A DNA stretch of 64,000 nucleotides from Candidatus Omnitrophota bacterium (GTDB lineage Bacteria; Omnitrophota; Gorgyraeia; B26-G9): NCBI GenBank assembly GCA_016213925.1, contig JACQZH010000007.1, positions 30,951 to 94,950 of the forward strand. The letters are read 5' to 3'. The notes under the pieces are model-generated. The model made no database searches, was not told the DNA's origin, and worked only from the letters and a program-made list of their open reading frames with translations. This document shows, in pieces, positions 775 to 27,187 of this stretch (its first letter is position 1; every line of letters starts with the position of its first letter). The position numbers and the translations under genes are program-made.

Positions 775-1276
775 CTTTCCTGACGACATATTAATTTCTA
801 TCATACAACCTCAAAACGCTCATTGCGATTTTACTTCTGTAGAACCGACAACTAATAAAAAGAAGAAGAAATATAAATTAGCCGGCAAAGTGATTCTTCA
901 GCCGTTAAATTTCTACCCGTTTTTTATTCTAACCTCGAATAAAAGTACTTGCCAAGAGTATTTAACCGTTTGCATTAAGCGAGAAGAATGGGCGGATAGA
1001 AATTCGACTCATCTTGCTGAAGAAAAGTCATATATCGATATAAAGAAAATAGAGACTTTGACCCAGGAAGAGATAATAGACAAAATGAGGGATCCTGACA
1101 ATGGGTTTCCTTGTATCGCAAAATTGTGCGATAAGAAATTTGAGGAAATAGCGGAGAAACGGAAGAACTTACATAAAGCGACCCGACTTTCATCCAAAAC
1201 ACAAGACATAATCAATGCAGCACTTTCAGAAGCAGATATAGCAAATAATATACTTAAAAATTTGTCCTTAGAATAA
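767..1276 (+). CDS. Hypothetical 169-aa protein overlapping the Panacea gene by 8 nt (ATGATTGA); candidate toxin partner (PanT-like) of unknown fold.
   Basis: ORF overlaps the upstream stop. Lys-rich, with no recognisable motif. Assignment rests on the operon arrangement with the Panacea antitoxin. Confidence 0.4.
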   Translation: MIDFPDDILISIIQPQNAHCDFTSVEPTTNKKKKKYKLAGKVILQPLNFYPFFILTSNKSTCQEYLTVCIKREEWADRNSTHLAEEKSYIDIKKIETLTQEEIIDKMRDPDNGFPCIAKLCDKKFEEIAEKRKNLHKATRLSSKTQDIINAALSEADIANNILKNLSLE

Positions 1277-6649: not shown

Positions 6650-9610
6650 TTAATTTAATATAAATCCTTGATTGCCGCGCAAGATAAATCTTTTTACAGC
6701 ATGCCTGGTTTTATCCGCAGTATCTGTTCCGGTTAAAAAAAACGTAAAAATTACGGTGTCTGCCATTTCTTGTGCCTGCGGATTGGTATAAGAAATAATA
6801 TCGTAATTAGGAAACTGAACCGCCGTGTCTTGCGGGGAAAAGGAGTAAGAAAATTTCTCGTTATTGACCTCTAGAATCCCCTCATCCATTATCATCCCCG
6901 GCATAATCACGGTATAATAAACCTTAGCGTGGCGTAAGGGAGTTTTTATTGCGCCCTTTATCCTTAAAATGTCAGTATAATTTATTGAGAATCGCGCGGG
7001 CAAGTTAAGTTCGAGAATGTCATTTGGCGCGGAAGGCTCAACAGCATAAACAAAATATTTTCCGTCTCTAGTGCCGGCAAAATCGCCTTTTTTGTCCTTA
7101 TAACGGCAATTTCCTTCAACAGTATAAACTCCGGGTTCTTGTATTGGTATTTCCGCGCCTTCAGCAGCGGACATTTTTGCCAGGCCTATTTTATTTGTGA
7201 TGCCTTTGAATTCATATTGTTTTCCGCCGGGTGTAGTTATTTTTTTTAAACATTTAACATTAGCGATAGGAGGAAAAATCATTGCTCCGGCGCTTAAAAT
7301 ATCGCCGGTTTCAAAAATCATTCCGGCCAAAGGCGTGCCGGCATCAAAAAGATAATGCTTGCGGCCGTTAATCTCGAAAATCGGTTCAGCTAGAGGCGCG
7401 GATACTCTATTAGCAAAAGAACCTTTTGGGATAACCACGCCCATAGAGGCATAGATTCCATATAAATTAATTCCTTTTTTTAGATCACGATAGACAACAC
7501 CGCCCAAAAATTCATAAATATCCTGCGGCAAATCCCCGTTATAACTGTTGTTGATTTGCTCTCCGGCAAAGTTTCCGCCGCTTTGCCAATACGTGTCTCC
7601 CATAGGATGAGTGTCTTGGCTGACCATAAATCTGGCAGTAAGGCCGGGGCGGATTGCGCTCATATAGGCATAGGAGTGTTTGTCTAAGAATTCAGGATAT
7701 CCTTGCGGCTGGTATCCGTTTGTTGTTGTGGAAAAAGGAGCGATTCCTTTTGTTATTCCCGGGAATAGATTTTCTTTACAGCGCATTGTCAGGATAGGAC
7801 GAATGCCATTGTCTCCGGAGAAAGTATTTGCGATATAGAGAATATCGCCGGAATAATATGGAAAAGGGAACAGGGTACAGCAGGTGTAATTATTAGACAT
7901 AGGATTGTTGACCGTCATGAGTTGCCCTTCATAATTGCTATTATCCCTTGGCCCGATATCAGCGTGTATATGGGTGGAAGGGGACGCGCCATGCACGATG
8001 AGCGGTGAGTTTTTGGGAGCAACAACAGAACCGCTTTTTTGGCTGCCCATCCAAAAATTACCCTGGCTATCCGTATAGAACGCTGTAATTGTGGAAAGAT
8101 ATTCTCCTGGGCAGTCAAAAATCATTTTTTCAAATTTTTCTTTCGGGTAAAAGTACCCGTAACGGTTAGCTGCTCCTTCGATAACAACTTTTTTTATATC
8201 CTGCTTGCTGGAATTTCTATAAAAGGCAATATCTACTTTTACCTTGGCTGGGCAAGGCGGATGGATGATGACCGACGGAGGATATCCATCGCCCACTTCA
8301 AACGGAGTGCCTGGCTTTACGCTGGTGGCAAAAGTTAAGCGGTTCGCAACCCACACTTCGTATGTTCCGCCGCCGGTATATGTATTGCCCCAAACATCAG
8401 AGATCCAGCCGGTTAATTCAATTGAGTATTTGCCTTGCAAGGAAAACTGATAGCCGAACTTATCGGAATTTGAAGAAGCCCCGGTCGTAGATTGGGATTG
8501 AAATTTTTCTGTGCCGAGAATATCTTTTGTCCCGTCAGGTTTTGTGACAACAACCGAAAGCTCGCCGGATTGATAATTTAAAGGAATAGGAGTTTGAAAA
8601 TCCCATTTTGATCCCTGCTCTAGTTTTAGAAGCGGTTTTGCGAACATAGTAGGGAAATCAGGTTCAAGGATATATTTTGTTGTTTCCTGAGGTGTTTTTA
8701 ACGGAGGAAGAATGAATTCAGCAGGGATAATATGCCGGGAATTAAATTGAAAATTATCCGCGTCTTCTTTCGCGACTACTCCTTGAGTGCCATTGCTGAA
8801 ATATTTTGTAAGCAGTGTCCAGATCATCTTTGGCATAACAGGATTGCCGACTTTGATTACCGGAAGGTACGAAGATGTCCTTAGAATTATAGATTGATCC
8901 CAGTCAGAATAAATAGACGATGTTTTAGCGTATAGAGGCAAAAAGTTTACCCGATGAAAATAGCGGTGTTTTTTACAGAGGGCGGTAATTTGAAAGCGGT
9001 AATACCCTTCGGGAAAATCGGTTTTTATAATATCCTGGAACTTAAAATTAGCCTGCAGTTCTTCAGCGTTGATTTTTAAATTTGATTTTGGCGCAAAAGC
9101 ATATTTATAAAATGGCGCAGAATTGCTGTATCCTGAAAACCGGTTTTCAGGGGCTAAAGAATCGATATATTCGACAAATTTTAAATCCTCATATTCTGTC
9201 GCGCTAAAGTCGTAGTTTTCAATGGGCAGTCCCGAGGGGGTTAATACTGTGGAATTATAGTTATTTGTGAATTGATGATAACGGCCTTGTTTATCAAAAA
9301 TTCTTTCCGCGCGTAAAAGGATATAAATGCCGTCAAGCTCCTTGATGACTTCAATGGCCTGCCTGGATTTTACTTGTAAGCGTACCTGTATTTCGATATT
9401 ATCATTAAAATTAAAATCGTTTTTGTTTATCGAGGTTTCAAAGCTTAATTCGCCATCGCCAAGAATTTTTTCCGAAAAATCAAAACAAACGGGATCAGCG
9501 AATAAGAATACAGGAGAGCTAATCAAGGCAAAACAGAGGACAGGAAAAACAAAAACCGTTAGAAAAAAGTTTTTTTTGATAAGCATGGCAATCTTTCTTA
9601 ATTTCCGCAA
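6650..9610 (-). CDS. Large (986 aa) secreted or membrane-anchored protein of unknown function, co-oriented with and abutting the diheme cytochrome c.
   Basis: Long intact ORF, N-terminal TM/signal, no recognisable catalytic motif. A 1-nt gap to the downstream cytochrome gene implies an operon. Confidence 0.55.
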   Translation of the reverse strand: MRKLRKIAMLIKKNFFLTVFVFPVLCFALISSPVFLFADPVCFDFSEKILGDGELSFETSINKNDFNFNDNIEIQVRLQVKSRQAIEVIKELDGIYILLRAERIFDKQGRYHQFTNNYNSTVLTPSGLPIENYDFSATEYEDLKFVEYIDSLAPENRFSGYSNSAPFYKYAFAPKSNLKINAEELQANFKFQDIIKTDFPEGYYRFQITALCKKHRYFHRVNFLPLYAKTSSIYSDWDQSIILRTSSYLPVIKVGNPVMPKMIWTLLTKYFSNGTQGVVAKEDADNFQFNSRHIIPAEFILPPLKTPQETTKYILEPDFPTMFAKPLLKLEQGSKWDFQTPIPLNYQSGELSVVVTKPDGTKDILGTEKFQSQSTTGASSNSDKFGYQFSLQGKYSIELTGWISDVWGNTYTGGGTYEVWVANRLTFATSVKPGTPFEVGDGYPPSVIIHPPCPAKVKVDIAFYRNSSKQDIKKVVIEGAANRYGYFYPKEKFEKMIFDCPGEYLSTITAFYTDSQGNFWMGSQKSGSVVAPKNSPLIVHGASPSTHIHADIGPRDNSNYEGQLMTVNNPMSNNYTCCTLFPFPYYSGDILYIANTFSGDNGIRPILTMRCKENLFPGITKGIAPFSTTTNGYQPQGYPEFLDKHSYAYMSAIRPGLTARFMVSQDTHPMGDTYWQSGGNFAGEQINNSYNGDLPQDIYEFLGGVVYRDLKKGINLYGIYASMGVVIPKGSFANRVSAPLAEPIFEINGRKHYLFDAGTPLAGMIFETGDILSAGAMIFPPIANVKCLKKITTPGGKQYEFKGITNKIGLAKMSAAEGAEIPIQEPGVYTVEGNCRYKDKKGDFAGTRDGKYFVYAVEPSAPNDILELNLPARFSINYTDILRIKGAIKTPLRHAKVYYTVIMPGMIMDEGILEVNNEKFSYSFSPQDTAVQFPNYDIISYTNPQAQEMADTVIFTFFLTGTDTADKTRHAVKRFILRGNQGFILN

Positions 9611-10176
9611 AATACCGGATATATGATATAATAATAAAAACTATTTTTCAACGGAGCATTTTTTTAGGGTTGAAAATAAAGAAATTCAGGCGAGAAAAGA
9701 AACTAGCGCTTATAAATAAAGGATAAAGATATCTCGCTCTAAAAACAGAGCTTGATATCCGCTCGATTTTCTACAAAAATCTCGCGGAGAGTTGGCAGAC
9801 GAAGCCCCGCAGATTTGTTCTGCGCAAGCAGAACGTTGCGGGAAAAACGGTTTATTCTTAATAAGGGTGATAAAAATTACATAACCATTTGTGGCGTAAA
9901 GTAATCGAAGAATTTTACGCTCAGCACCAATTTTTTCGCTGAAAAACAGCGCAACCGGTAAATCCATACTGTGTTTTTGGCGTGCTGGAACTCGCCCGTC
10001 GGCTTGCGCCAGATGGGCTTGAGACATCCATCGCGCCCAAAAGGGTACCCAAAAACACAGCATGTATTTACCTAAATTGGTGAATTCGCTTAAAAATTTT
10101 CGATTACTTTTGCAACTTAAATACGAAAGCGGAAAAACCGTTGGAATAAGGTGGATTGAAATGAAAGATAGTTAGC

Positions 10177-10266
10177 GGAGAGTTGGCAGAGCGGCCGAAT
10201 GCGGCGGTCTCGAAAACCGTTATCCGGGTAACTGGATCAGGGGTTCGAATCCTCTACTCTCCGCCA
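10177..10266 (+). tRNA. tRNA-Ser (anticodon CGA), class II with long variable arm, CCA encoded.
   Basis: Acceptor GGAGAGU/ACUCUCC, anticodon loop CUCGAAA, long variable arm, T-loop UUCGAAU, discriminator G + CCA. Confidence 0.85.
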
Positions 10267-10645
10267 TTTTTACCGACAAGGTAAAAATGAAGGATGCCGA
10301 GAAGGCCGAAGCGAGCCGGCAAGGCGAGCCGGCCGCAGCGGCGACGCCATAAATTTTTTGGCAAAAATGGCGTTTCAATATGCTTAACGCATATTGAAAG
10401 TATCCTTTTGCGGGGAAAACAGCTAAAAGTAAACTTTTTCCTGTTTCCCCGCAATTACGTCTACAGCGGCCGGGCAATCCGAGCTCGCAAGCAAGCTCTT
10501 CTTGTCCCTGCCTACATTACGATTACAAGCGTGCTCAAATAAGTTTCTTAGTGATTAGGTTTGAAGTGAAGTCAAAATTATCTTGAGATTGGAACAGTCT
10601 GGGAGTATTATTAATAATATAAAGACTTGTAAACAGTGAGGAAAC

Positions 10646-11506
10646 ATGAATAAAGAAATAACCGCGACTAAAATAGCAATTTTCAGAAAACGCGAAATCC
10701 GCAGGACTATTCATAAGGATGAATGGTGGTTTTCAGTGATTGATATAGTAGAAGCGCTTACGGGCACTAATAGGGGTAGAAAATATTGGAGCGATCTTAA
10801 GAAAAAGCTTATTGAAGAAGGGTATAGTGAAGTGTCCGAAAAAATCGGACAGTTGAAAATGATAGCTCCAGCTGGGAAATTAAGGCTTACGGATTGCGCT
10901 AATACAGAAACAATGTTTCGCATAGTACAGTCTATCCCATCTCCGAAAGCCGAACCTTTTAAGCGGTGGTTGGCTCGGGTCGGTTACGAGCGAATTCAGG
11001 AAATTGAGCACCCAGAGCTTGCCACAAAAAGGACAAGGGCGTTATATAAGGCTAAAGGGTATAGCGATGAATGGATCGAGAAACGAATGCGTGGAATTGC
11101 TATCCGTGAGGAGTTAACTGAGCAGTGGCAGAAGCGCGGCATTAAAGAGAAAAAGGGATACGAAATATTGACCGCTGACATATCGAAAGCGACATTTGGC
11201 ATGACCCCATTGGCTTACAAGAAACACAAGGGGCTTAAGCGTGAAAATCTGCGGGATCACATGACTGATCTTGAACTTATCTTTTCAATGCTTGGTGAGG
11301 CATCAACGAAAGAGATCGCCATTAATAAAGATGCTCAAGGGTTTGGGGAGAACAAACAGGCGGCGTTTGAAGGCGGCGCTGTGGCTGGCAACGCAAGAAA
11401 AGAGCTTGAGCGCAAAAGCGGCAAAAGAGTTATTAGCAAAGAAAATTATAAAAGATTACCGCAGAATAAGAAGCTGTTAAGAGTGGATAGTAGTTTCGAC
11501 AAGTAG
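10646..11506 (+). CDS. Bro-N domain / DinD-like (DNA-damage-inducible protein D family, phage antirepressor-like) protein.
   Basis: N-terminal IRRTIHKDEWWFSVIDIVEAL ... YWSDL resembles the Bro-N/DinD pattern; the central KHKGLKRENLRDHMTDLEL resembles DinD. Confidence 0.55.
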   Translation: MNKEITATKIAIFRKREIRRTIHKDEWWFSVIDIVEALTGTNRGRKYWSDLKKKLIEEGYSEVSEKIGQLKMIAPAGKLRLTDCANTETMFRIVQSIPSPKAEPFKRWLARVGYERIQEIEHPELATKRTRALYKAKGYSDEWIEKRMRGIAIREELTEQWQKRGIKEKKGYEILTADISKATFGMTPLAYKKHKGLKRENLRDHMTDLELIFSMLGEASTKEIAINKDAQGFGENKQAAFEGGAVAGNARKELERKSGKRVISKENYKRLPQNKKLLRVDSSFDK

Positions 11507-11586
11507 TTGAATTTCTTGGAGAGGCATGGCTCGCCTTCTGTCCGCGGCTACCTGCCATTTTATGCAAAAGGTGGACTATTTAAAGT

Positions 11587-11865
11587 ATGTTTAATGAAAA
11601 AAGAAAAATTGTCTTAATTTCAAGCGTACTGATTCTTTTTTTAAGTGGATTTTTATATTTATACAAAAACTGCTTTGATGTTATCTGTTTCTATTTCGCA
11701 ATCTTTGCCGGTGTAGGAATATTTTTAGGGGCTATTGATTATCTGAAATTTAAATTTGTGAAATTTATTCAAATCGGAATCCTGGTGGTGTTCATAATAT
11801 GGTCGATTCTATTTTTTGTTATGTTAATACTAATGGCCTCCGGAAGAATAGGCCATCCAAGTTGA
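11587..11865 (+). CDS. Small integral membrane protein (about 3 TM), hypothetical.
   Basis: Hydrophobic ORF directly upstream of and co-oriented with a larger membrane protein. Confidence 0.4.
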   Translation: MFNEKRKIVLISSVLILFLSGFLYLYKNCFDVICFYFAIFAGVGIFLGAIDYLKFKFVKFIQIGILVVFIIWSILFFVMLILMASGRIGHPS

Positions 11866-11886
11866 GAGCACAATGATGGATAATAT

Positions 11887-13167
11887 ATGAAATTTTTTAA
11901 AAAATATTTTGACAGTTATTGGATTCCTTTTGCCTTCTATATTATTGTTTTGCTGGCGGGAATGTTATGCGGCATGGTTTTTCGTTCGATGTACTTGGTA
12001 TTAGTAATGCAAGCGGTAAATATGTTCTTTTTTGCGGGAATGATCGCTGCTTCCATCTGGAACTTTAGAAAGAAACGCTGGAAAAAAGGGATTTCTAATT
12101 TAATCTTCCCTCTTTTAAACTTTGGCATGATTTTTATAGTTTTGTCTATGTTTGGGCATAGTGGAGATAAATTTGCCGATAACCTGGTAATCCCGGATAA
12201 TATAGATATAGCTGAGCCGGGAAATTGGAACAACTCACCTGAAAGCAAAGAGCAGGATGCATATCAAAAAGATATCTTGGATGCGCTTAACATTGCCGGA
12301 AGTGATGATGTATTGATTAGGGCTAATCTTCCTTCATTAATTAAACTAAACCAGAATGCTCCGGATATTTTTAAACGTTATCTTGCGGTTAGCCCTGCCT
12401 GGAGGCTATATCAGGAGCGCGGGAAATTATTCGCGACGCGAAGATGGATGATAGGTTCTCAATGGCGTTATACGTTACACGGTTATTATACGCGTTTTGA
12501 ATTATTCGATAAGGATATGCCTGATTTTCAAAATAGATTTTGTATTGGATTTTCAGGGAAACCCTGGCATGAAGCGTCAAGAACAACTTTTCTTAAAGAA
12601 GGACAATCAGCAAAATTGATATTATCAAAAGGCAATCAGATGAATGAAAGCCACTGTGTGATTAATGCCGATAGCTTATTTGTAGAAGTGTTTGAACAAT
12701 CTAAATTCAAAGAACGCCGTTTAACCAAGTCAGCTTTAGCTTATCTTGAAAAAGAATTGAACCCGTTGTTAGAACAGCCAACCTGGGGCAAAATCAAGGA
12801 GCTTATTCCCGCTAATAGCATTAAAAACTCAGAGCCGTCAATTAATCTTTGGGGCTCAGGAGGAATATATGATTCTGAGATCTGGGTTAATCCGGGAGAG
12901 CCGGGGATGATCTATCTTAAGGCATTTGAAGTTACTAAAAATACCCGTTTATCTGCTGAAGAGTTAAAGGAAAGTTCTAACGAATGGATCGGATGGTCTG
13001 AAGATTATAATGAAGTATTCTTTTCAAACACCAATTTTATGATTTATGAAGGAGACTGGAGTAAGCCTTACGCGGCGCGTTTTGAAGTATGGTTTGTTCC
13101 TGATTCCAAAGCCCCAGAAAGAAAGCTTATGGAAAGAGTATTCAAGATTGAAGGATGGCAAAGATAA
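11887..13167 (+). CDS. Membrane-anchored hypothetical protein (N-terminal TM helices + about 330-aa soluble domain).
   Basis: Intact 426-aa ORF with no recognised motifs. Confidence 0.5.
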   Translation: MKFFKKYFDSYWIPFAFYIIVLLAGMLCGMVFRSMYLVLVMQAVNMFFFAGMIAASIWNFRKKRWKKGISNLIFPLLNFGMIFIVLSMFGHSGDKFADNLVIPDNIDIAEPGNWNNSPESKEQDAYQKDILDALNIAGSDDVLIRANLPSLIKLNQNAPDIFKRYLAVSPAWRLYQERGKLFATRRWMIGSQWRYTLHGYYTRFELFDKDMPDFQNRFCIGFSGKPWHEASRTTFLKEGQSAKLILSKGNQMNESHCVINADSLFVEVFEQSKFKERRLTKSALAYLEKELNPLLEQPTWGKIKELIPANSIKNSEPSINLWGSGGIYDSEIWVNPGEPGMIYLKAFEVTKNTRLSAEELKESSNEWIGWSEDYNEVFFSNTNFMIYEGDWSKPYAARFEVWFVPDSKAPERKLMERVFKIEGWQR

Positions 13168-13605
13168 GTTTGTTTTAATTGGGATTATAAAACGCGGTAT
13201 AGTTAATGATTACGGCGGCTAACAGGCAGCCGCAGGCTGTGCCGGGCTAAAAATATCTTGACAAAATTTGTAGATATTGCAGAATAATAGTAAGCATGGA
13301 AGTTGCTGTAATTTGTTGAGATTTGGCATAAGTTAAGATAAACCCGAAATTCGCAATAGAAATTATCTATCGACTAAATCCGGCCGCACGAAAAAGTGTG
13401 GGCAGATTTAGTTATTGCAAAATCCAGGATAATTATGATGATATCAGGGGATGATTTAATCATTCTCTTTTTTTTATACCCCGCGGCCTAAACACAAAAT
13501 ATTTATTGCCTTGAGTCCAAATTATGCTATATAATGCAAAGCGTGCAAAGGAAAGCAGATTTGTCCTAAAACTACTATTCAGACATAGAGACGGAGGCGG
13601 TTTCA

Positions 13606-13794
13606 ATGAATATCATAAAGCAATTAGAACTATACCGACTCGAAAACAGGATTACGCAGGTTGATTTGGCAAATGAATTAAAAGTTGCCTTTTCAACAGT
13701 CAGCCGCTGGCTCAACGGTAAAACCACGCCGAATAAGATTCAACAGTATCATATAGAAAAGTTTTTAACTCGGCATAAAAAGGATAGCAAATGA
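13606..13794 (+). CDS. XRE-family (Cro/C1-type) helix-turn-helix transcriptional regulator, 62 aa.
   Basis: ITQVDLANELKVAFSTVSRWLNG is a canonical HTH_XRE. Its stop overlaps the start of the next gene (ATGA). Confidence 0.7.
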   Translation: MNIIKQLELYRLENRITQVDLANELKVAFSTVSRWLNGKTTPNKIQQYHIEKFLTRHKKDSK

Positions 13795-15169
13795 AATTTA
13801 CAGAAAGCGAAATCGTAGAACTCAAAACATCGACATCAGAACTCAAAGAGGCGATCATTTCTTTGGGAGCCATGTTGAACAAGCATGGCAAGGGCACAGT
13901 TTATTTCGGCATCGGTGATGATGGTGCCGTTTTGGGACAACAGATCGGCAAATCAACCTTAAAAGATGTTTCAAAAGCCATCAGTGATTGGATTGAGCCT
14001 AAGATTTATCCGGATATTCAGGCCAAGAAAATACAAGGCAAGGACTGCATTGTTGTTAAAGCCAGCGGACATGATGTCGTGTATTCGGCCCGCGGCAGTA
14101 CTATCTACGTATGGGAGAGGAAGACAAGAAGCTTTCGGTAGATGAATTGAGGCATTTGGTTGAAAAGAAAAATAACTATGCCTATTCCTGGGGTGCCGAG
14201 CTTTCTGATTTTTCGCTGTCCAAGGTTAGTGCCGCGACCGTTAAGAAGTTCGTTGAGAAAGGACGCAAAGCCGGGAGGATTGAATATTCTTATGATTCGG
14301 CGCGCAATGTCCTTAATAAAATTCACCTGTTTAAAGGCAAAAAATTGCTTAACGCGGGACGGGCGCTCTTTTGTGAAGACAGCGGTGTTGAAGTTCAAGC
14401 GGCTGTCTTTGCCGGAAAAGATAAAATGACGTTCGTCGATATTCAGAGTTTTCGCGGCCCTTTTTTTGATTTGATCGAACGGTGCGAAGTTTACGCCAAA
14501 GAGCACATTAACTGGTGCGCCGATCTTTCCGGGAGCACAAGGATCGAGATTCCGGAGGTTCCTGTCCGTGCTATGAAGGAAGCCATTACAAATTCCCTCT
14601 GCCACAGGGATTTTAACAACCCCAAAAGTAATGAAGTCGCCATCTATCGAGACAGGATCGAAATTTACAACCCCGGGCAGTTTCTTTTTGACCATGATCC
14701 GGATGAGTTCATCGCAGGCCATGGGAAAAGCTATCCTAGAAATCCACTGATTGCGGAAGCTTTTTATCTGGCTAAGGATATTGAGCGGTGAGGCTCAGGG
14801 TTGCGGCGTATCAAGGAAGAATGCGATGCCGCGGGCGTGAAAGTTGCGTTTGAGAAAGTATCTGCCGGGTTTCAGGTAACGTTTTATCGGTTGGAGGGGA
14901 AAATCGTTCCTAAAGAAGCAGAGAAAAGTAGGGAGAAAAGTAGGGAGAAAAGTAGGGAGAAAAGTAGGGAGAAAAGTAGGGAGAAAAGTAGGGAGAAAAT
15001 TCTTAAGCTTGTGATCAGTAATCCGTCGATTACCGCGCAGGAGCTTGCAGACAGCGTAGGCTTGAGCGTTAAGGGGATAGAGAAGGCGATAAGAGTACTT
15101 AAAGAACAGGGTTTATTAAAACGTGTCGGGCCCGATAAGGGCGGGCATTGGGAAGTGGCAAAAGGTTAA
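13791..15169 (+). pseudogene. Schlafen/AlbA_2 + HATPase_c_4 + C-terminal winged-HTH protein ('RecG-like putative DNA-binding' family), disrupted by a frameshift near 14100-14115 and an in-frame TGA at 14789-14791.
   Basis: Three consecutive ORFs (13791-14141, 14111-14791, 14801-15169) together reconstitute the family architecture. The TGA falls in a DIER-TGA-GSGLRRI motif where family members have a conserved Trp (IERWGSG), consistent with a TGG to TGA mutation. Confidence 0.6.
14921..15000 (+). repeat. 12-bp tandem repeat (agtagggagaaa, about 6.6 copies) encoding (SREK)n in the linker before the winged-HTH.
   Basis: Perfect tandem copies read directly from the sequence. Confidence 0.9.
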
Positions 15170-15580
15170 TCATGGGAACGACAACATTTTTTCTTAGACT
15201 TAATGATTGCGCAAAGCCGTTGCACAAAATGAGCAAGAAAGAATTGGCAGAATTAAATAATGTCACCCCTTACGCTGATAAAGCTTATAAAGGGGGCTGG
15301 CTGGTTTCACCGGAATTTACACCGATCGAGTCTCTTCTGCTAAGAGCTGAACTGTTACAACGCAAGAGAGTTTCTCATCTTGAAATATCTTCCAAGCTGT
15401 TGTAAAAGCAGTTTTGAGAAAAAAGATATAATACTTTACAATTAAAACAGTTGTAAATGCGAGCGCATTCCCAAGTTGACAACTACACGTTATTATGTTG
15501 ACAATAGACACGGATTATGTTTACATTATGTTAAGAATAAGTTGACAAAAACAAAAAAGGATATTTAAGAGAGTATTGTT

Positions 15581-16648
15581 ATGGGGCTGACAAAAGAGAC
15601 TGGACAAAAACTAAAAGAGTATATATTAAATAATGTGGATAAGTATCCTAGTCAAATTGTTGCGAAAGCTGCTAAGGAATTTGGAATATCAAGACAAGCG
15701 GTTCATCGGCATATTCGGCAGTTGAAAAATAACAGCGCGCTTGTGTCTGCGGGCAAAGGAAAAAGCGTGCAATATTCCTTGAAAATAATACAGCATACTT
15801 TCCAACTGAAGGTATTTCCTGGGATGAGTGAAGATCAGGTTTGGAAGGAAAAAATATTTCCCAGCCTGCCAAAATTAAATAAAAATATTTTAGATATTTG
15901 TCAATATGGTTTTACGGAAATATTTAATAATGTAATAGACCATTCAGAATCAGAAGAGGCTATAGTTGTTGTGACGGAAGACATAACGTCAATTCTTTTG
16001 TATGTTTCGGATAGCGGAGTGGGGATATTTAATAAAATTCAACAAGCGTTAAAATTAGAAGATCCGCAGCATGCTATTTTAGAATTGGCAAAAGGGAAAT
16101 TTACTACGGATCCGGAGCAACATAGCGGGGAGGGAATATTTTTCACCTCCAGAATTTTTGATAAGTTTGAAATTCTTTCGCAAAATTTATATTTTTATGG
16201 ATATAAGGATGAAGATTGGATTCTTGAATCAGAAAACGGTTTAAGTAAAGGCACCGCGGTATTTATGAAAATTCGCAGGGATTCAAAAACAACAATTAAG
16301 GAAATATTTGATAAATATACTTCAGGGGAAAGCGATTTTGGTTTTTCAAAAACAATTATACCGGTGAGCTTAATGCGGCATGAAGGGCAAGAGCTTGTTT
16401 CTCGTTCGCAGGCAAAACGTTTAATTACAAGATTCGATAGATTTAAAGAAGTAGTGCTGGATTTTCAGGGTGTGACAATGATTGGACAGGCTTTTGCGGA
16501 TGAACTATTCCGGGTTTTTGGAAAACAGCATCCGGAAGTCAGCATTGTCCCGATAAACACAACGGAAGATATTAAAAATATTATCCTGCATGTTAGAGCT
16601 GAATCCGGCGCAACTGATCTGCAAAAAGAGAATAGCGGCGAAAACTAA
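15581..16648 (+). CDS. Fused HTH + GHKL ATPase (RsbW-like anti-sigma kinase fold) + C-terminal STAS-like (DUF4325) protein.
   Basis: N-terminal HTH (GISRQAVHRHIRQL), GHKL N-box (FTEIFNNVIDHS) and G1 (DSGVGIF), then a C-terminal LDFQGV ... AFADELF block typical of DUF4325/STAS-like domains. Confidence 0.6.
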   Translation: MGLTKETGQKLKEYILNNVDKYPSQIVAKAAKEFGISRQAVHRHIRQLKNNSALVSAGKGKSVQYSLKIIQHTFQLKVFPGMSEDQVWKEKIFPSLPKLNKNILDICQYGFTEIFNNVIDHSESEEAIVVVTEDITSILLYVSDSGVGIFNKIQQALKLEDPQHAILELAKGKFTTDPEQHSGEGIFFTSRIFDKFEILSQNLYFYGYKDEDWILESENGLSKGTAVFMKIRRDSKTTIKEIFDKYTSGESDFGFSKTIIPVSLMRHEGQELVSRSQAKRLITRFDRFKEVVLDFQGVTMIGQAFADELFRVFGKQHPEVSIVPINTTEDIKNIILHVRAESGATDLQKENSGEN

Positions 16649-16708
16649 CTTTTCTTTGCCGGCATATAAGATGAACTTTAAATTTAAAATATCGGAACAG
16701 GTTTTTAA

Positions 16709-17014
16709 TTGGAGCGTATTCATAAATTTTCAAGAAGGAGAAGGAGGATAGTCGTGAAACCGTTAAAAAAAAAGAAAGAAAAAGCAAAAAGAAAAATCAC
16801 TTCGGAGCAAGCTTTCGCTTCTTTGATTGGGCTGCTTCTGACGCTGATTATAATTGCGGTACTTTTATACTCGCTGGCGAATAATAATAAAAACACGGGC
16901 TCTCAACAGGCAGAAGACGCGCCTGCTAATCCAAAAGCAACGCTGGACAAGGCAAAAGAGGCAGTGGGAAACATCAATAAACAGCAGCAAAAGCGTATGC
17001 AAGAGTTGGAATAA
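16709..17014 (+). CDS. Small basic membrane protein, hypothetical.
   Basis: Lys/Arg-rich N-terminus followed by one TM helix. Confidence 0.3.
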   Translation: MERIHKFSRRRRRIVVKPLKKKKEKAKRKITSEQAFASLIGLLLTLIIIAVLLYSLANNNKNTGSQQAEDAPANPKATLDKAKEAVGNINKQQQKRMQELE

Positions 17015-17157
17015 GGCAATAAATTTATTGACCAGGGGGCAGAAAAGGAGTAAGCTATCATTGTGCTTCAGGGATGAATAACGCGATGAGGCAAAAAGCA
17101 GATGCTTTAACATGGTATTAAAACAACCGGATTTTTGCGGTTGTTTTTTCTTTTTTC

Positions 17158-19533
17158 GTGGGGAGTTCAATGTCAAAACAAAAAAATAAAGACCAAAGTT
17201 TTTTACTGTGTGAAAAGATAAAGAAACTGACAACACTGCTTACGCAGGAAAAACAAACGGAACAGGCATTAAGAAGCGGGATTAAGGCCTATATTCAAAG
17301 AGAGAAAGTTTTTCGGCAGTTGTTTGATAATATTAAAACAGCTGTTGCTGTTTATAAGGTTGTTGATAACGGCAAGGATTTTGTTTTTGCGGATTTTAAT
17401 CATGCGGCGGAAAAAATTGATAAAATAAAAAAAGAACAGCTTATCGGGAAAAAAGTCAGCAGGGTTTTTCCCGGGGTAAAGGAATTCGGGTTGTTCGATG
17501 TGTTTAAAAGAGTATGGAAAACCGGTAAGCCAGAGCATCACCCTGTGGGTATTTATAAAGATAAAAGAATCCAGGGGTGGAGGGAAAACTATGTGTATAA
17601 AATCCCTTCCGGAGAAATAATCGCTGTATACGAAGACGCTACCGCGCGCAAACAAGCGGAACAGCAGATGAAAGAGCTAGCAAGATTCCCTAAAGAAAAT
17701 CCGAACTTGGTTTTAAGGGTAACCTTTCAAGGCGAGGTTATTTTTAAGAATAAAGCAGTAGACAGTGTTTTAAAGAGTTTAAGGGTCAATCAAAAAGATA
17801 TTAAAGAAATTCTTCCTAAGAATCTAGCCGCGATAATACGCAAAGCGCGAAAAAATAAAAGGCAATCAGTGAATTCAGAGGTTTCGATAAAAGGCAAAAC
17901 ATATTTTTACGCGATATCTGTGGGAGCGCAAGATGCCAATATCTACGGGTTTGATATTACAGAGCGCAAAAAGACAGAAAAAGAATTATATCACAACTCA
18001 AAACAATTACAGGTCCTCAATGAAAATCTGGCAGAGGGCATGGTGTACCAGATCAACAGCGGCAAAGACGGTTTATCGAGAAAATTTTCCTATTTGAGCC
18101 CGGCAGTGAAAAAGCTTCACGGGTTAGAGCCTAGAGAAGTTATTGCAAATCCGCGTATATTATATGAGCAGGTAATAGAACCAGACCGTTCGTTTCTAGC
18201 AAAAAAAGAAAAGCATGCGTTTGAAACGATGAGTAAGCTTGAAGCTGAAGTTAGGATGCGGCTGCCTTCCGGAGATATCCGCTGGCGTCAATTTGTATCA
18301 ACGCCCAGGATTATGGAGGGTGTTGTTTTATGGGATGGGATTGAACTGGACATCACAGAGCGCAAGCAGGCGGAATTAAAATATAAAACTATTTTAGATA
18401 CCGCGATTGATTGTTTTTATATTATTAACGCGCGGCAAGGCAACATCTTGGAGGTTAATGATGCCTACTGTTCTTTGATTGGATATAGCCGTGACGAATT
18501 GCTTAAGATGAGCTTAAAAGATATTGAATATAAAGAAAACCCTAAGAAAATAGCGCGGCATATGCGGTACATAATCAAGAAAGGCGCGGATCATTTTGAA
18601 ACTCGTCACAGGGCCAAAGAAGGAAGGATTATTGATCTTGAAACGAGTGTTAATTATATGAAAGAAAACAAAAAGTTTTTTGTGTTTATGCATGATATTA
18701 CCGAGCGCAAGAAATATGAGAATGACCTTAAAAAAGCTAAGGAAGAGATAGAAAAATGGAATAAAGAGCTGGAAAAAAGAGTGCGAGAAAAAGCGTGTGC
18801 TTTAAAAGAGGCGCAGGAACAGCTTTTTCAGGCGGATAAACTTAGCAGTATCGGGCAGTTGGGCGCGGGTATCGCGCATGAGTTAAACAGCCCGCTTGCC
18901 GGTTTGCTAAGCTTAATCAGGGCTTATAAAAAGAAAAAAAATCCGGATACGGATGAATACGCGGAATTAGCGGAAATGGAATCAGCCTGCGAATACATGG
19001 CAAGAATAGTTAGAGACTTAAATTTATTTTCCCGGCAAACTGTTGGAGAAACGGAAAAAGCGAACTTAAACGAGCTTATTGAGGCTACAATGTCTTTTAG
19101 CATGCATCAGCTTAAAGCTAAAAATATCATAATAATAAAAAACTATAGCCAAGAACTGGCTGTTTTCTTGGCGGACAAGCGCCGTGTTCAGCAGGTAATT
19201 ATTAACCTGTTGGCAAATGCCTGCGATGCTTTATCCGAGCGCGGTATTTTAACAATTACTACCGGAAATATTAATTTAAATGGGCAAGTGTTTGTTGAAT
19301 TGGAGGTTGCGGATAATGGCTGCGGCATAAAAAAAACGGATATAAAGAAAATTTTTGAGCCTTTTTTTACTACAAAACGCCCGGGGAAAGGCGTGGGGCT
19401 TGGATTAGCTGTTGTTTACAGCATTGTTGAGAAGCACAAGGGCAGGATTTTTGTCAAAAGCAAGGAAGGCGCGGGAACAACATTTACGGTGCAGCTTCCG
19501 GCGCTAGTAGAAACAAGGACTGCTGAAAAATAA
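17158..19533 (+). CDS. PAS/PAC-domain sensor histidine kinase.
   Basis: H-box AGIAHELNSPL, N-box NLLANACDAL, G-boxes DNGCGI and GVGLGLAVV. Multiple PAS-like segments upstream. Confidence 0.85.
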   Translation: MGSSMSKQKNKDQSFLLCEKIKKLTTLLTQEKQTEQALRSGIKAYIQREKVFRQLFDNIKTAVAVYKVVDNGKDFVFADFNHAAEKIDKIKKEQLIGKKVSRVFPGVKEFGLFDVFKRVWKTGKPEHHPVGIYKDKRIQGWRENYVYKIPSGEIIAVYEDATARKQAEQQMKELARFPKENPNLVLRVTFQGEVIFKNKAVDSVLKSLRVNQKDIKEILPKNLAAIIRKARKNKRQSVNSEVSIKGKTYFYAISVGAQDANIYGFDITERKKTEKELYHNSKQLQVLNENLAEGMVYQINSGKDGLSRKFSYLSPAVKKLHGLEPREVIANPRILYEQVIEPDRSFLAKKEKHAFETMSKLEAEVRMRLPSGDIRWRQFVSTPRIMEGVVLWDGIELDITERKQAELKYKTILDTAIDCFYIINARQGNILEVNDAYCSLIGYSRDELLKMSLKDIEYKENPKKIARHMRYIIKKGADHFETRHRAKEGRIIDLETSVNYMKENKKFFVFMHDITERKKYENDLKKAKEEIEKWNKELEKRVREKACALKEAQEQLFQADKLSSIGQLGAGIAHELNSPLAGLLSLIRAYKKKKNPDTDEYAELAEMESACEYMARIVRDLNLFSRQTVGETEKANLNELIEATMSFSMHQLKAKNIIIIKNYSQELAVFLADKRRVQQVIINLLANACDALSERGILTITTGNINLNGQVFVELEVADNGCGIKKTDIKKIFEPFFTTKRPGKGVGLGLAVVYSIVEKHKGRIFVKSKEGAGTTFTVQLPALVETRTAEK

Positions 19534-19549
19534 GCTGGGGCGGAAAAAG

Positions 19550-19918
19550 ATGAATAAAATACTTGTTGTAGATGATGAAAAATTGATTTGCATAAGTATA
19601 AAAAGAGAACTGGAGGATCTAGGGTATAAAGTGCAGATTGCTCTGAACGGAGCAGATGCTATTGATTGCGTGGAAAATAACGAGATTGAGATGGCATTTG
19701 TTGATTTGATTCTGCCGGATATAAACGGGATGAATGTGTGTAAAAGGATAAAACAATTAAACAGCAATATAAAAGTTGTGCTTATGTCCGGTTATACGGA
19801 TAAACTTATGGATTTAAAAAAAGAATTCAGCCTTTTGAAAGGAGCAAAGGATATGCTGGAAAAGCCGTTTGGCGGTGACGATATTTTAAAGCAGGTAACC
19901 AGTTTTTTTGTTAGTTGA
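19550..19918 (+). CDS. Single-domain response regulator (CheY-like receiver).
   Basis: VVDDE, VDLILPD and KPF motifs. Sits 17 nt downstream of the kinase. Confidence 0.8.
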   Translation: MNKILVVDDEKLICISIKRELEDLGYKVQIALNGADAIDCVENNEIEMAFVDLILPDINGMNVCKRIKQLNSNIKVVLMSGYTDKLMDLKKEFSLLKGAKDMLEKPFGGDDILKQVTSFFVS

Positions 19919-20038
19919 AAACGCAAGAAATTAAAAAAGCAAAAGCCTGATAATCGCTTGACAGTAAAGCGGTTAGCAGGTAAAATAATATTCAATATTT
20001 AAACAAGGAATTCGCTAACGGATAGATGGAGAGGTTAT

Positions 20039-25672: not shown

Positions 25673-27187
25673 ATGAAAGTTTTTTTAGCAGGATTTAATA
25701 TTGATACAGATGTTTTACGGCAGATGCAAGAAAAATCAGGGCGGCGCCAGGACATAACTCCGGAGGTTATTTGCGCTGCGTACGCGCGTATCAGCCGGGA
25801 TCCGCGTCCGGTTAATGAAATACGCCAGGATGCAAGAAACGAAGTTGAACGTTCCCGCAAATCAAATTCAACGATAATATTTAAAATGGGCCACCACTCT
25901 GTTGCCGAGCACGCGGTATTTAATCTGGATATTTTAGAGGTTTCCCGTTTCGCGATGGAAGAGCTTGAAAAGTTCAGGCTGTGTTCTTATACGGAAAAAT
26001 CGCAGCGCTATATTACGCTGGATAATGATTTTGTTGTTCCAGAGGAGATTAAAAACACTTGTTTTGAAGAGATGTTTATTTCCATGATTGAACAGCAGAA
26101 CAAAGCTTATTTTAAATTATTTGAACGGCTTAAAGAATATATTTTCGAAAAACACGCTCAATTGGCAAAGGACCCCAAAAATCATAATCTGCTGGAAGGA
26201 TGGGCAAAAGAAGATGCCCGTTATGTTACGGCACTGGCAACACATTCGCAAGTTGGGCAGACAATTAACGCGCGTAACCTGGAGCTTTTGCTGCGCAGAT
26301 TTGCTTCGCATCCTTTATCCGAAATAAAACAACTGGGAATTTCTATATATAATCAGATAGCAAGCATTGCTCCTTCTATTGTTATCTTCAATGAGGCGAA
26401 CGAACGTGACCTGAAAACGTATCCGGGTTTAAAAAAAGCGGCAAAAGAGCTGCTTGCAAAGGTGCCGCTTAAGCTTGCGCCGGGCACGCAGCAGAATGTA
26501 CAGCTGGTAGAATTTACGAAAAACGGAGATCTGGCAGTTGCGGCCGCGCTACTGCATGCGGCAACCGAGCTTACCTATGAAGATTGCCGCGTTGTTGCGG
26601 AAAAATTATCGCAAGAAGAGCAGAAAATGCTTTTTAAAAACGTATGGGAAAATATGCAGTTTTATGATTCCATGCTGCGCGAATTTGAATATACGAATCT
26701 CACTTTTAATATTGTTTTATCCGCGGCTTGTTTTGGACAGCTTAAACGCCACCGCATGTCAACAATATCAGCTCAAGAATATGATCCGAACCTGGGTGTT
26801 ACTGTGCCTGAATCGGTTAAAGAAACCGGCATGGAAAAATATTTTCAGGAAATTATTGATAAAACAAATGCTGTCTATAATAATATCAGCCGCGAAATTC
26901 CGATAGCCGCGCCATATATTTTAACTAACGCGCATCGTAAGAGAGTATTATTGCGCCTTAATGCGCGGGAACTTTACCACATATCCAGGTTAAGGGAAGA
27001 TACGCATTCTCAATGGGATATTCGTAATATTGCCGCGGGCATGAGCCAGAAAGCTAAACAGGTAATGCCGCTTACATTCGCTTGCATTGGAGGCAAAGAT
27101 AAGTATAGCGAGATTTACAAAAATCTTTATGGCCGGCTGCCAAAGGTAACTCAAGCTGTACTACCGCAGCCGCGGTCAATTACATAA
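25673..27187 (+). CDS. thyX: Flavin-dependent thymidylate synthase ThyX, tandem-duplicated (two ThyX domains in one 504-aa chain).
   Basis: Domain 1 has the SQRY end of the ThyX motif (RLCSYTEKSQRY). Domain 2 has the RHR beginning (RHRMSTISAQEY). Confidence 0.7.
   Translation: MKVFLAGFNIDTDVLRQMQEKSGRRQDITPEVICAAYARISRDPRPVNEIRQDARNEVERSRKSNSTIIFKMGHHSVAEHAVFNLDILEVSRFAMEELEKFRLCSYTEKSQRYITLDNDFVVPEEIKNTCFEEMFISMIEQQNKAYFKLFERLKEYIFEKHAQLAKDPKNHNLLEGWAKEDARYVTALATHSQVGQTINARNLELLLRRFASHPLSEIKQLGISIYNQIASIAPSIVIFNEANERDLKTYPGLKKAAKELLAKVPLKLAPGTQQNVQLVEFTKNGDLAVAAALLHAATELTYEDCRVVAEKLSQEEQKMLFKNVWENMQFYDSMLREFEYTNLTFNIVLSAACFGQLKRHRMSTISAQEYDPNLGVTVPESVKETGMEKYFQEIIDKTNAVYNNISREIPIAAPYILTNAHRKRVLLRLNARELYHISRLREDTHSQWDIRNIAAGMSQKAKQVMPLTFACIGGKDKYSEIYKNLYGRLPKVTQAVLPQPRSIT

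What the first reader, a model, noticed from the sequence alone, without database searches (positions are those of the whole stretch)
10646..16648. Putative small genomic island next to tRNA-Ser with phage/defence-flavoured genes
Immediately downstream of tRNA-Ser lie a Bro-N/DinD-like antirepressor-type gene and a co-oriented pair of membrane proteins of unknown function (11587-13167). These are followed by an XRE regulator translationally coupled (ATGA overlap) to a Schlafen/AlbA_2-HATPase_c_4-wHTH gene, and then a fused HTH-GHKL-STAS protein. Gene families of this kind are enriched in defence islands and prophage remnants. None is a housekeeping gene, and the block ends where the two-component system at 17158 starts. 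The membrane-protein pair has no recognisable domains and could be an abortive-infection-type effector.
Basis: partly seen in the sequence, partly recalled or inferred. Interest (0 to 1): 0.6.

Follow-up and report, generated by a model that had tools for sequence, protein, structure and literature searches.

The report
Decayed accessory-gene patch beside tRNA-Ser
The stretch after tRNA-Ser in this Omnitrophota genome is a roughly 5-kb mosaic of unrelated accessory genes with no integrase and no validated defence system, its Schlafen-like gene is dead, and the last gene of the reported block is probably a resident regulator rather than island cargo.

Summary

1. The "Schlafen/AlbA_2-HATPase_c_4-wHTH gene" is a pseudogene. 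It has a 1-nt deletion at 14093/14094 and a TGG->TGA stop at 14789-14791. Both show up against relatives that are 90-93% identical.
2. The HTH-GHKL-STAS gene (15581-16648) is probably not island cargo. In the relative L006 its closest known homologue (58% identity) directly follows the same tRNA-Ser(CGA).

The lineage-specific segment is therefore about 10267-15470. None of its genes follows this tRNA in the four relatives that keep the tRNA beside the same flanking gene. Its oligonucleotide and codon usage deviate mildly; its GC content does not.

It has no integrase and no att repeat. The only defence-database hit is PADLOC PDC-S13 for the Bro-N gene, which is an untested candidate. The "membrane pair" is not a conserved pair. 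The 426-aa protein belongs to a large uncatalogued family (1184 clusters, no Pfam model) of membrane-anchored beta-sandwich proteins found in unrelated contexts, some of them housekeeping, so an abortive-infection role has no support.

Verdict: an ordinary, partly decayed variable region.

The most unusual thing seen is a side result. The HTH-GHKL-STAS family carries arrays of GTTGACAA boxes spaced exactly 22 nt apart upstream of the gene.

The parts
10177..10266 (+). tRNA-Ser (anticodon CGA). It marks the left edge of the variable segment.
   Evidence: ARAGORN and Rfam tRNA, 51.8 bits. The same tRNA lies near the 986-aa gene in L006, L008, L098 and L096.
10267..15470 (+). Lineage-specific accessory segment, about 5.2 kb. 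It is a mosaic of separately acquired genes with no integrase and no att repeat.
   Evidence: None of its genes follows the tRNA in four relatives. Tetranucleotide deviation is the window maximum, z +2.69, and codon-usage z is -1.0 to -2.6 for 6 of 7 ORFs. The tRNA 3' end is not repeated in the window. The right limit is set by the conserved box array of the next gene.
10646..11506 (+). Intact Bro-N-domain protein (286 aa), a member of the PADLOC candidate family PDC-S13 and of phrog_15286.
   Evidence: Pfam Bro-N E 1.2e-11. PDC-S13 E 3e-117 over profile positions 4-274 of 286. phrog_15286 E 3e-91. No NCBIfam hit. Best match is 70% identity to a plasmid gene of Ca. Paracaedimonas acanthamoebae, and the family is a stand-alone gene on plasmids.
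11587..11865 (+). Small hydrophobic ORF (92 aa, GC 0.30). No homologue was seen next to relatives of the following gene, and whether it codes at all is unproven.
   Evidence: ORF list. No family hit. No tblastn match in L001-L005, and the called genes directly upstream of the homologue differ at every locus examined. Composition.
11887..13167 (+). Intact 426-aa protein of a large uncatalogued family. It has three N-terminal transmembrane helices followed by a helical region and two beta-sandwich domains.
   Evidence: 901 homologues at about 50% identity across phyla, none with a Pfam domain. 1184 50%-identity cluster representatives. No Pfam hit even at E<=1. AF2 model with pLDDT 90. Only generic FnIII/Ig and helix-bundle fold matches. 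Neighbourhoods are unrelated to each other. Codon usage is host-like, z +0.20.
13606..13794 (+). XRE-type HTH regulator (62 aa). Its stop overlaps the start of the AlbA_2 pseudogene (ATGA).
   Evidence: HTH_3 E 1.9e-07. Sequence.
13791..15169 (+). Pseudogene of an AlbA_2(Schlafen)-HATPase_c_4-wHTH protein. It has a 1-nt deletion at 14093/14094, an in-frame TGA at 14789-14791, and an expanded 12-nt tandem repeat (EKSR)n at 14909-15004.
   Evidence: Three ORFs tile phrog_12156 and intact homologues. P0215 (93% identity) reads through both lesions. DNA alignments to L102 show both changes. Tandem repeat.
15172..15405 (+). Small ORF (77 aa) that starts 3 nt after the pseudogene's stop. Unknown, with no family hits.
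   Evidence: Not homologous to the ORF that follows the L102 copy.
15475..15547 (+). Array of four direct GTT(G/T)ACA boxes starting at 15475, 15497, 15519 and 15541, exactly 22 nt apart. They lie 106, 84, 62 and 40 nt before the ATG of the next gene. Presumed operator of the HTH-GHKL-STAS protein.
   Evidence: The same phased array sits upstream of the L006 homologue (5 boxes) and across the family: >=2 boxes in 51 of 69 loci against 0.35% of background windows, and spacing of 21-23 nt in 85 of 106 adjacent pairs against 0 of 14 in background.
15581..16648 (+). Intact wHTH-GHKL ATPase-STAS-like (DUF4325) protein (355 aa). Probably resident at this locus rather than island cargo.
   Evidence: Pfam. 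58% identical to the gene directly after tRNA-Ser in L006, in the range of the other shared genes of the locus, 44-68%. Codon z +1.35. GHKL N, G1 and G2 motifs conserved in 74 family members.

Best explanation
The reported 6-kb block is two things.

(1) Positions ~10267-15470 are a variable patch immediately 3' of tRNA-Ser(CGA). It holds several unrelated stand-alone accessory genes with different histories:
- an intact Bro-N/PDC-S13-family gene;
- a doubtful small hydrophobic ORF;
- an intact member of a very large uncharacterised family of membrane-anchored proteins with a beta-sandwich ectodomain;
- a recently acquired XRE + AlbA_2/HATPase_c_4/wHTH operon that has since been inactivated by a frameshift and a nonsense codon.

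No mobility machinery survives. The patch is best read as the decayed residue of one or more insertions at a recombination-prone tRNA locus, not a working island or defence locus.

(2) Positions 15475-16648 are a resident, self-contained regulator cassette. It is a wHTH-GHKL ATPase-STAS-like protein preceded by four GTTGACA-type boxes phased at 22 nt, which the protein's own wHTH most likely binds to autoregulate.

Shown: gene content, the two lesions, absence of these genes after the tRNA in relatives, the adjacency of the last gene to the tRNA in L006, the composition figures, and the family-wide box arrays.

Inferred: the direction of the event (insertion here rather than loss elsewhere), box binding by the wHTH, and the periplasmic location of the 426-aa protein's C-terminal part (from the positive-inside rule).
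For: Absence from relatives:
- L006 has the order 986-aa gene ... tRNA-Ser(CGA) - HTH-GHKL-STAS (58% identity) - HK - RR, with nothing in between.
- L008, L098 and L096 also lack the Bro-N, 426-aa, XRE and AlbA_2 genes.

Composition:
- Window 10401-15600 has the maximum tetranucleotide distance (z +2.69).
- Six of seven ORFs have codon z of -1.0 to -2.6, against +1.35 for the HTH-GHKL-STAS gene.

Mosaic histories:
- AlbA_2 relatives reach 90-93% amino-acid and 86.6% nucleotide identity in other lineages.
- Bro-N is 70% identical to an alphaproteobacterial plasmid gene.
- The closest relative of the 426-aa gene is 62% identical.
- The flanking 986-aa gene has nothing above 60%.

Pseudogene.

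No integrase or att.

Defence: the only hit is PDC-S13, which is untested.

The 426-aa family is stand-alone and sometimes in housekeeping contexts.

The box array is conserved with the regulator family.
Against: - The nearest relatives share only 56-60% amino-acid identity in the flanking 986-aa gene, and each has different content after the tRNA. Insertion cannot be distinguished rigorously from ancestral presence plus loss.
- The HTH-GHKL-STAS family is itself patchy, with variable neighbours, so it could have landed at the same tRNA twice.
- The composition signal is modest, GC is unshifted, and the tandem repeat adds to the tetranucleotide distance.
- The sequence comes from a MAG. The two lesions could in principle be assembly or consensus errors, though one is a substitution and the other lies in only a GGG run.
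- PDC-S13 might turn out to be a real single-gene defence.
Confidence: 0.65

Rival explanations
1. One reading: the whole of 10646-16648 is a functional mini defence island. Bro-N/PDC-S13 and the membrane pair would act as abortive-infection-type effectors, with XRE-Schlafen and HTH-GHKL-STAS as sensor or regulator modules.
For: - The Bro-N protein matches PADLOC PDC-S13 at full length, E 3e-117.
- Intact AlbA_2-HATPase_c_4 homologues sit inside type I R-M operons on 2 of 3 plasmids inspected.
- A few neighbours of HTH-GHKL-STAS relatives are methylases, Hma components, PDC-S11 or toxin-antitoxin genes.
- DUF4325 genes are reported coupled to PIN.4 VapC genes (PMC5499597).
- The block is absent after this tRNA in relatives.
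Against: - PDC systems are explicitly untested candidates.
- The AlbA_2 gene carries two inactivating lesions.
- The 426-aa family has no PADLOC or PHROG hit, no relatives in IMG/VR, no conserved partner, and lies after mreBCD-PBP2-RNase G in two loci.
- The 92-aa ORF is not conserved with it.
- HTH-GHKL-STAS directly follows the same tRNA in L006 and has host-like codon usage, and its neighbours show no enriched family.
Confidence: 0.12
2. The block is ancestral to this Omnitrophota lineage and was lost or replaced in the sampled relatives. It would then be ordinary lineage-specific chromosome content rather than an insertion.
For: - Relatives are distant, at most 60% identity in the flanking gene.
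- All four have different content after the tRNA, so the locus is generally fluid.
- GC is not shifted.
- The 426-aa gene has host-like codon usage.
Against: - The AlbA_2 gene is 90-93% identical to copies in a Ca. Wildermuthbacteria MAG and another Omnitrophota MAG, whereas the flanking gene tested has nothing above 60%. This is incompatible with long residence for at least that part.
- Bro-N is 70% identical to an alphaproteobacterial plasmid gene.
- The segment has the most deviant oligonucleotide usage in the window.
Confidence: 0.13
3. The arrangement is a MAG assembly or binning artefact, with foreign sequence joined at the conserved tRNA. Under this reading the 'pseudogene' lesions are consensus errors from mixed strains.
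For: - The source is a metagenome-assembled genome.
- tRNA genes and mobile genes are common chimera points.
- In L007 only the first 36 nt of the tRNA are matched (94% identity) and ARAGORN finds no tRNA; this lies about 180 nt from the contig end.
Against: - Both flanks of the block are collinear with L006: the tRNA on the left, and the HTH-GHKL-STAS gene with its box array, HK and RR on the right. A chimera would therefore need two precise joins.
- The contig is 95 kb.
- One lesion is a clean substitution in a conserved Trp codon.
Confidence: 0.05

Closest known systems
tRNA-linked genomic islets or integrative-element remnants
   Same: It lies immediately 3' of a tRNA gene, its genes do not follow the tRNA in relatives, its cargo is a mosaic with mobile-element affinities (Bro-N, XRE, AlbA_2), and its composition deviates mildly.
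   Different: It has no integrase, no duplicated tRNA 3' end and no excisionase. Its components have clearly different ages, and one is already a pseudogene.
PADLOC PDC-S13 (single-gene 'phage defence candidate' from guilt-by-embedding; bioRxiv 10.1101/2024.01.29.577857)
   Same: The Bro-N protein matches the PDC-S13 profile end to end (E 3e-117).
   Different: Here the gene is not embedded in an R-M, BREX or DISARM system. The family has no experimental support, since the paper calls the 145 PDCs untested.
Bacterial Schlafen/AlbA_2-HATPase_c_4-wHTH proteins, annotated 'ATP-binding protein' or 'RNA-binding domain-containing protein' and often inside type I R-M loci
   Same: Same three-domain order. 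The copy is 93% identical to intact relatives.
   Different: The window copy is frameshifted and carries a premature stop. It is preceded by a translationally coupled XRE gene rather than hsd genes.
Partner-switching modules (RsbW/SpoIIAB GHKL kinase with RsbV/SpoIIAA STAS)
   Same: The HTH-GHKL-STAS protein joins an RsbW-type HATPase_c_2 domain with conserved N, G1 and G2 motifs to a STAS-like DUF4325 domain.
   Different: All parts are fused in one chain with an N-terminal wHTH, and no sigma factor is involved. The STAS-like motif is IGQAFADE, with no conserved Ser/Thr where, from my recollection of the SpoIIAA motif, the phospho-serine would sit. The gene also carries 22-nt phased GTTGACAA boxes.
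Iteron arrays bound by winged-helix proteins, such as plasmid Rep iterons of about 22 bp
   Same: There are 2-6 direct repeats with strict 21-22 nt phasing next to a gene for a wHTH protein.
   Different: The arrays are chromosomal and sit in the promoter region of the gene itself. There is no replication function and no Rep homology, and binding has not been shown.

Membership tests
tRNA-integrated genomic island | Lies directly beside the 3' end of a tRNA gene | tested here: met
   The tRNA-Ser ends at 10266 and the first island gene starts at 10646.
tRNA-integrated genomic island | Encodes an integrase or recombinase | tested here: not met
   Pfam finds no integrase, recombinase or transposase domain in the ORFs scanned across window 1-28 kb.
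tRNA-integrated genomic island | Flanked by a direct repeat of the tRNA 3' end (attL/attR) | tested here: not met
   The 25-nt tRNA 3' end occurs once in the window at <=3 mismatches. The repeat scan of 9600-20000 found none. Only a 16-nt copy of the tRNA 5' end lies upstream at 9784.
tRNA-integrated genomic island | Absent from the same locus in related genomes | tested here: met
   L006, L008, L098 and L096 keep tRNA-Ser(CGA) near the 986-aa gene but lack the Bro-N, 426-aa, XRE and AlbA_2 genes. These relatives are distant, at 56-60% amino-acid identity in that gene.
tRNA-integrated genomic island | Composition differs from the host genome | tested here: inconclusive
   GC is unshifted. Tetranucleotide distance is the window maximum (z +2.69) and 6 of 7 ORFs have codon z of -1.0 to -2.6, but the largest gene is host-like.
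Known anti-phage defence system (PADLOC-DB v2) | A complete set of system genes matches validated system models | tested here: not met
   The only strong hit is PDC-S13. The remaining hits are weak matches to HTH or HATPase_c_4 segments of unrelated systems.
PADLOC PDC-S13 candidate | Full-length match to the PDC-S13 profile | tested here: met
   E 3e-117, residues 7-276 against profile positions 4-274 of 286.
PADLOC PDC-S13 candidate | Demonstrated anti-phage activity | not testable with these tools
   The source paper describes the 145 PDC systems as untested. No paper in the library mentions PDC-S13.
AlbA_2-HATPase_c_4-wHTH protein | The three domains in order within one open reading frame | tested here: not met
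   The domains are present in order, but the frame is broken by a 1-nt deletion at 14093/14094 and a TGA at 14789-14791.
DinD (DNA-damage-inducible protein D) | Match to a curated DinD family model | tested here: not met
   The Bro-N protein matches no NCBIfam family at E<=0.01. I assume, but did not verify, that the library holds a DinD model.
   No PADLOC or PHROG hit and no relatives in IMG/VR. The six distinct neighbourhoods examined, from six homologues, share nothing, and two lie after mreBCD-PBP2-RNase G. The 92-aa partner is not conserved.
Partner-switching GHKL kinase / STAS module | GHKL ATP-binding motifs (N, G1 and G2 boxes) conserved | tested here: met
   E113-N116-N117-D120-H121, D144xGxG148 and GEGIFF 183-188 are conserved in 74 family members.
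Partner-switching GHKL kinase / STAS module | Conserved phosphorylatable Ser/Thr in the STAS domain, and a sigma-factor target | tested here: inconclusive
   The conserved STAS-like motif is IGQAFADE with no conserved Ser/Thr. The alignment to the SpoIIAA motif is from memory, not computed. No sigma-factor gene is adjacent.

The most novel reading that the evidence does not exclude
The interesting object may be the gene at the right edge rather than the island. The wHTH-GHKL ATPase-STAS-like (DUF4325) family would be an undescribed, self-contained one-gene cassette that travels with its own array of 2-6 GTTGACAA boxes phased at exactly 22 nt. That would make it an ATP-dependent autoregulatory switch, or possibly a single-gene conflict or addiction module. 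It is scattered through many phyla without any conserved partner gene.

A second, weaker candidate is the 426-aa family: 1184 clusters, no Pfam model, and an invariant C-terminus ...KIEGWQR. It could be a new widespread envelope protein family.
Probability: 0.25. Interest if true: 0.5.

Novelty: new member of a known kind. Interest (0 to 1): 0.27.

Why it matters
For the finding as posed, the stakes are low. It is one more fluid tRNA-adjacent patch in a poorly sampled phylum, with no working defence system to mine.

It is a useful caution in three ways:
- Gene families that merely look defence-related do not amount to a defence island.
- A PADLOC PDC hit is a candidate, not a system.
- Split ORFs should be checked before a multi-domain 'gene' is called.

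Two by-products could matter to specialists. First, there is a clear cis-element (GTTGACAA boxes phased at 22 nt) attached to an uncharacterised regulator family, which makes that family experimentally tractable. Second, there is a very large membrane-anchored protein family that domain databases do not yet cover.

Tried and rejected
- **Exact look-up of the window's 426-aa protein in the contig index.** Not on record.
- **att site.** Searches for the tRNA 3' end at <=3 mismatches and for direct repeats over 9600-20000 found nothing.
- **Rfam on 9500-17300 at E<=1.** Only the tRNA reached its family's gathering score; three other matches up to E 1 scored far below theirs.
- **Phage origin of the 426-aa family.** No relatives in IMG/VR.
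- **A conserved partner for the 426-aa gene or for HTH-GHKL-STAS.** None was found.
- **Closer relatives of the source genome.** The best flanking-gene identity is 60%, so no fine-scale presence/absence test was possible.
- **Homology of the intergenic DNA flanking the block to L006.** Too diverged to map exact junctions.
- **Literature.** No paper holds 'PDC-S13', and only three papers mention DUF4325 in passing.
- **Promoter and terminator scan.** Counts were not clearly above the shuffled expectation, so it was not used.

Full report
**Source and layout**

The window comes from a metagenome-assembled Candidatus Omnitrophica genome. The 426-aa protein is 100% identical to NCBI entry HY810_01055 on a 95-kb contig.

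tRNA-Ser(CGA) lies at 10177-10266. The ORFs after it, all on the + strand, are:

| Coordinates | Size | Identity |
|---|---|---|
| 10646-11506 | 286 aa | Bro-N domain protein |
| 11587-11865 | 92 aa | small hydrophobic ORF |
| 11887-13167 | 426 aa | membrane-anchored protein, no family hit |
| 13606-13794 | 62 aa | XRE regulator |
| 13791-14141, 14111-14791, 14801-15169 | three ORFs | AlbA_2, HATPase_c_4 and wHTH pieces |
| 15172-15405 | 77 aa | small ORF, unknown |
| 15581-16648 | 355 aa | HTH-GHKL-STAS protein |
| from 17158 | 791 aa | PAS histidine kinase |
| 19550-19918 | 122 aa | response regulator |

**The Schlafen-like gene is a pseudogene**

- The three ORFs carry AlbA_2, HATPase_c_4 and wHTH respectively. 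They match consecutive parts of one PHROG profile, at positions 16-124, 132-360 and 368-482 of 485.
- A repaired concatenation aligns as a single piece over 98% of its length to intact one-ORF genes on plasmids. The three pieces tile intact 447-454 aa homologues.
- Very close relatives exist. P0215 is 93% identical and reads ...YSARGRYYLRMGEEDKK... and ...DIERWGSGLRR... through both junctions.
- DNA alignment to L102 (86.6% nucleotide identity over 1074 nt) shows that the window lacks one G of a GGG run at 14093/14094. It also has TGA where the relative has TGG, at 14789-14791.
- The linker carries an expanded 12-nt tandem repeat at 14909-15004, encoding (EKSR)n.
- The L102 copy is independently decayed. 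An IS3-type transposase truncates its 5' end, and it has its own in-frame TGA.

**Presence or absence in relatives**

The flanking 986-aa gene (6650-9610) has no relative closer than 60% identity, so the lineage is poorly sampled. Four relatives keep tRNA-Ser(CGA) near that gene.

- **L006.** The tRNA is followed, after a 360-nt spacer, by a homologue of the HTH-GHKL-STAS gene at 58% identity. The other shared genes of the locus are 44-68% identical. A histidine kinase and a response regulator follow.
- **L008 and L098.** The tRNA is followed by a response regulator and a DUF3568 gene.
- **L096.** The tRNA is followed by unrelated metabolic genes.

None carries Bro-N, the 426-aa gene, XRE or AlbA_2 there. 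Relative to L006, the lineage-specific segment is therefore ~10267-15470. The HTH-GHKL-STAS gene is most simply explained as inherited at this locus.

**Composition**

GC content is not shifted. The other measures come:

- The 5.2-kb window 10401-15600 has the largest tetranucleotide distance of 46 sliding windows (z +2.69).
- Six of the seven ORFs in the segment have synonymous-codon z-scores of -1.0 to -2.6.
- The 426-aa gene (+0.20) and the HTH-GHKL-STAS gene (+1.35) are host-like.

The signal is modest but agrees with the synteny result.

**Mobility and defence**

- No integrase, recombinase or transposase domain appears in the ORFs scanned across window 1-28 kb. The tRNA 3' end is not repeated.
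- PADLOC gives one strong hit. The Bro-N protein matches PDC-S13 at E 3e-117 over its full length.
- PDC systems are 145 candidates proposed by guilt-by-embedding, and the authors explicitly call them untested (bioRxiv 10.1101/2024.01.29.577857).
- The Bro-N family is a stand-alone gene on plasmids. The best match is 70% identity to a Ca. Paracaedimonas acanthamoebae plasmid. It also appears on a few small gut 'Bacteriophage sp.' contigs.
- NCBIfam gives no support for 'DinD-like'.
- Intact AlbA_2-HATPase_c_4 homologues do sit inside type I R-M operons on two of three plasmids inspected. The defence affinity is real for that family, but this copy is dead.

**The membrane 'pair'**

- The 426-aa protein belongs to a large family. 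There are 901 hits at roughly 50% identity across Omnitrophota, Phycisphaerae, Chloroflexi, Verrucomicrobia, Kiritimatiellia and Desulfobacterota.
- A profile search finds 1184 50%-identity cluster representatives.
- None has a Pfam domain, even at E<=1.
- The AF2 model is confident, with pLDDT 90. It has three N-terminal transmembrane helices, a helical segment and two beta-sandwiches.
- Fold searches return only generic FnIII/Ig and helix-bundle matches. By the positive-inside rule the C-terminal part should face the periplasm; this is an inference.
- The neighbourhoods are unrelated to each other:
  - an ICE-like region with ArdC and a resolvase;
  - small unknown genes;
  - directly after mreBCD-PBP2-RNase G in two loci;
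  - beside ParE and an IS1595 element;
  - among metabolic genes.
- There are no relatives in IMG/VR.
- The 92-aa ORF has no counterpart next to any homologue.

Nothing supports an abortive-infection effector or a two-gene module.

**The HTH-GHKL-STAS cassette**

- The metagenome scan found 234 relatives at 40-54% identity.
- No neighbour family recurs; the largest cluster is in 5 of 76 loci. Neighbours are a mix of housekeeping, toxin-antitoxin, IS and methylase genes.
- The family alignment conserves the HTH (ISRQAV), the GHKL N, G1 and G2 motifs, and a STAS-like IGQAFADE motif.
- Upstream of the window gene are four GTT(G/T)ACA boxes at 15475, 15497, 15519 and 15541, exactly 22 nt apart. 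L006 has five with the same spacing.
- Across 69 family loci, 51 have at least 2 boxes and 31 have at least 3, allowing one mismatch to GTTGACAA. The background rates are 0.35% and 0.06% of 3116 windows.
- Of 106 adjacent spacings, 85 are 21-23 nt (56 are exactly 22) and 9 are 43-45. In the background, 0 of 14 are 21-23 nt.

This cis-element travels with the gene. It most likely serves as the operator for the protein's own wHTH, but that is inferred and not shown. I found no description of it. DUF4325 appears in only three papers in the library, and only in passing.

**Verdict**

The 'island' idea is partly right for 10267-15470. The 'defence' idea is weak, and the reported block mixes an accreted, partly dead accessory patch with a probably resident regulator. 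It is an ordinary feature of a fluid tRNA locus. The phased-box regulator family and the uncatalogued 426-aa family are the only items that deserve follow-up.

Noticed in passing
window 9611-10176 (16-nt repeat at 9784-9799; inverted repeats 9898-9920/10088-10110 and 9957-9980/10049-10072): An exact 16-nt copy of the tRNA-Ser 5' end (GCGGAGAGTTGGCAGA) lies 391 nt upstream of the tRNA, with nested inverted repeats between the two copies. Relatives L006, L007, L008 and L098 carry an OprB-CbiM-CbiQ-CbiO operon in this position, and the window lacks it. This may be a deletion or rearrangement scar.
   Followed up: partly
window 10022-10099 and L007 8533-8609: A 79-nt stretch of the structured region upstream of the tRNA is 81% identical to an intergenic stretch in a distant relative. 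This suggests a small repeated or mobile element (MITE-like) or an uncatalogued RNA. Rfam found nothing here.
   Followed up: partly
L007 181-216: Only the first 36 nt of the tRNA-Ser are matched (94% identity) and ARAGORN finds no tRNA there. The match lies about 180 nt from the contig end. This may be a disrupted tRNA or an assembly break at a variable site.
   Followed up: no
window 14909-15004: A 12-nt tandem repeat (GAGAAAAGTAGG, about 6-7 copies) encodes (EKSR)n in the linker before the wHTH of the AlbA_2 pseudogene. Close relatives have shorter, different low-complexity linkers (P0218, P0285).
   Followed up: partly
L102 8531-12489 (also L103-L105): In another Omnitrophota lineage the same AlbA_2 gene (about 87% nucleotide identity) is flanked by IS3-type transposase genes. 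It is truncated at its 5' end and has its own in-frame stop. The same mobile gene has therefore decayed independently in a second lineage.
   Followed up: partly
window 298-1276: A SocA/Panacea-domain antitoxin-like ORF (298-774, E 1.6e-10) overlaps a 169-aa ORF (767-1276) that has no Pfam hit. This could be a Panacea-type toxin-antitoxin pair.
   Followed up: no
window 25673-27187: A 504-aa ThyX-like protein matches the Thy1 domain in two stretches, which looks like a tandem or fused ThyX.
   Followed up: no
window 6650-9610 (minus strand): A 986-aa protein with no Pfam or NCBIfam hit is conserved (56-60% identity) in a clade of Omnitrophota next to a small c-type cytochrome-like gene. The same genome holds a second, 38%-identical paralogue (HY810_05635).
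   Followed up: no
L011 and L013, gene at 6001: In two loci the 426-aa family gene sits immediately downstream of mreB-mreC-mreD-PBP2-RNase G. This hints at an envelope or cell-shape-related role for at least part of the family.
   Followed up: no
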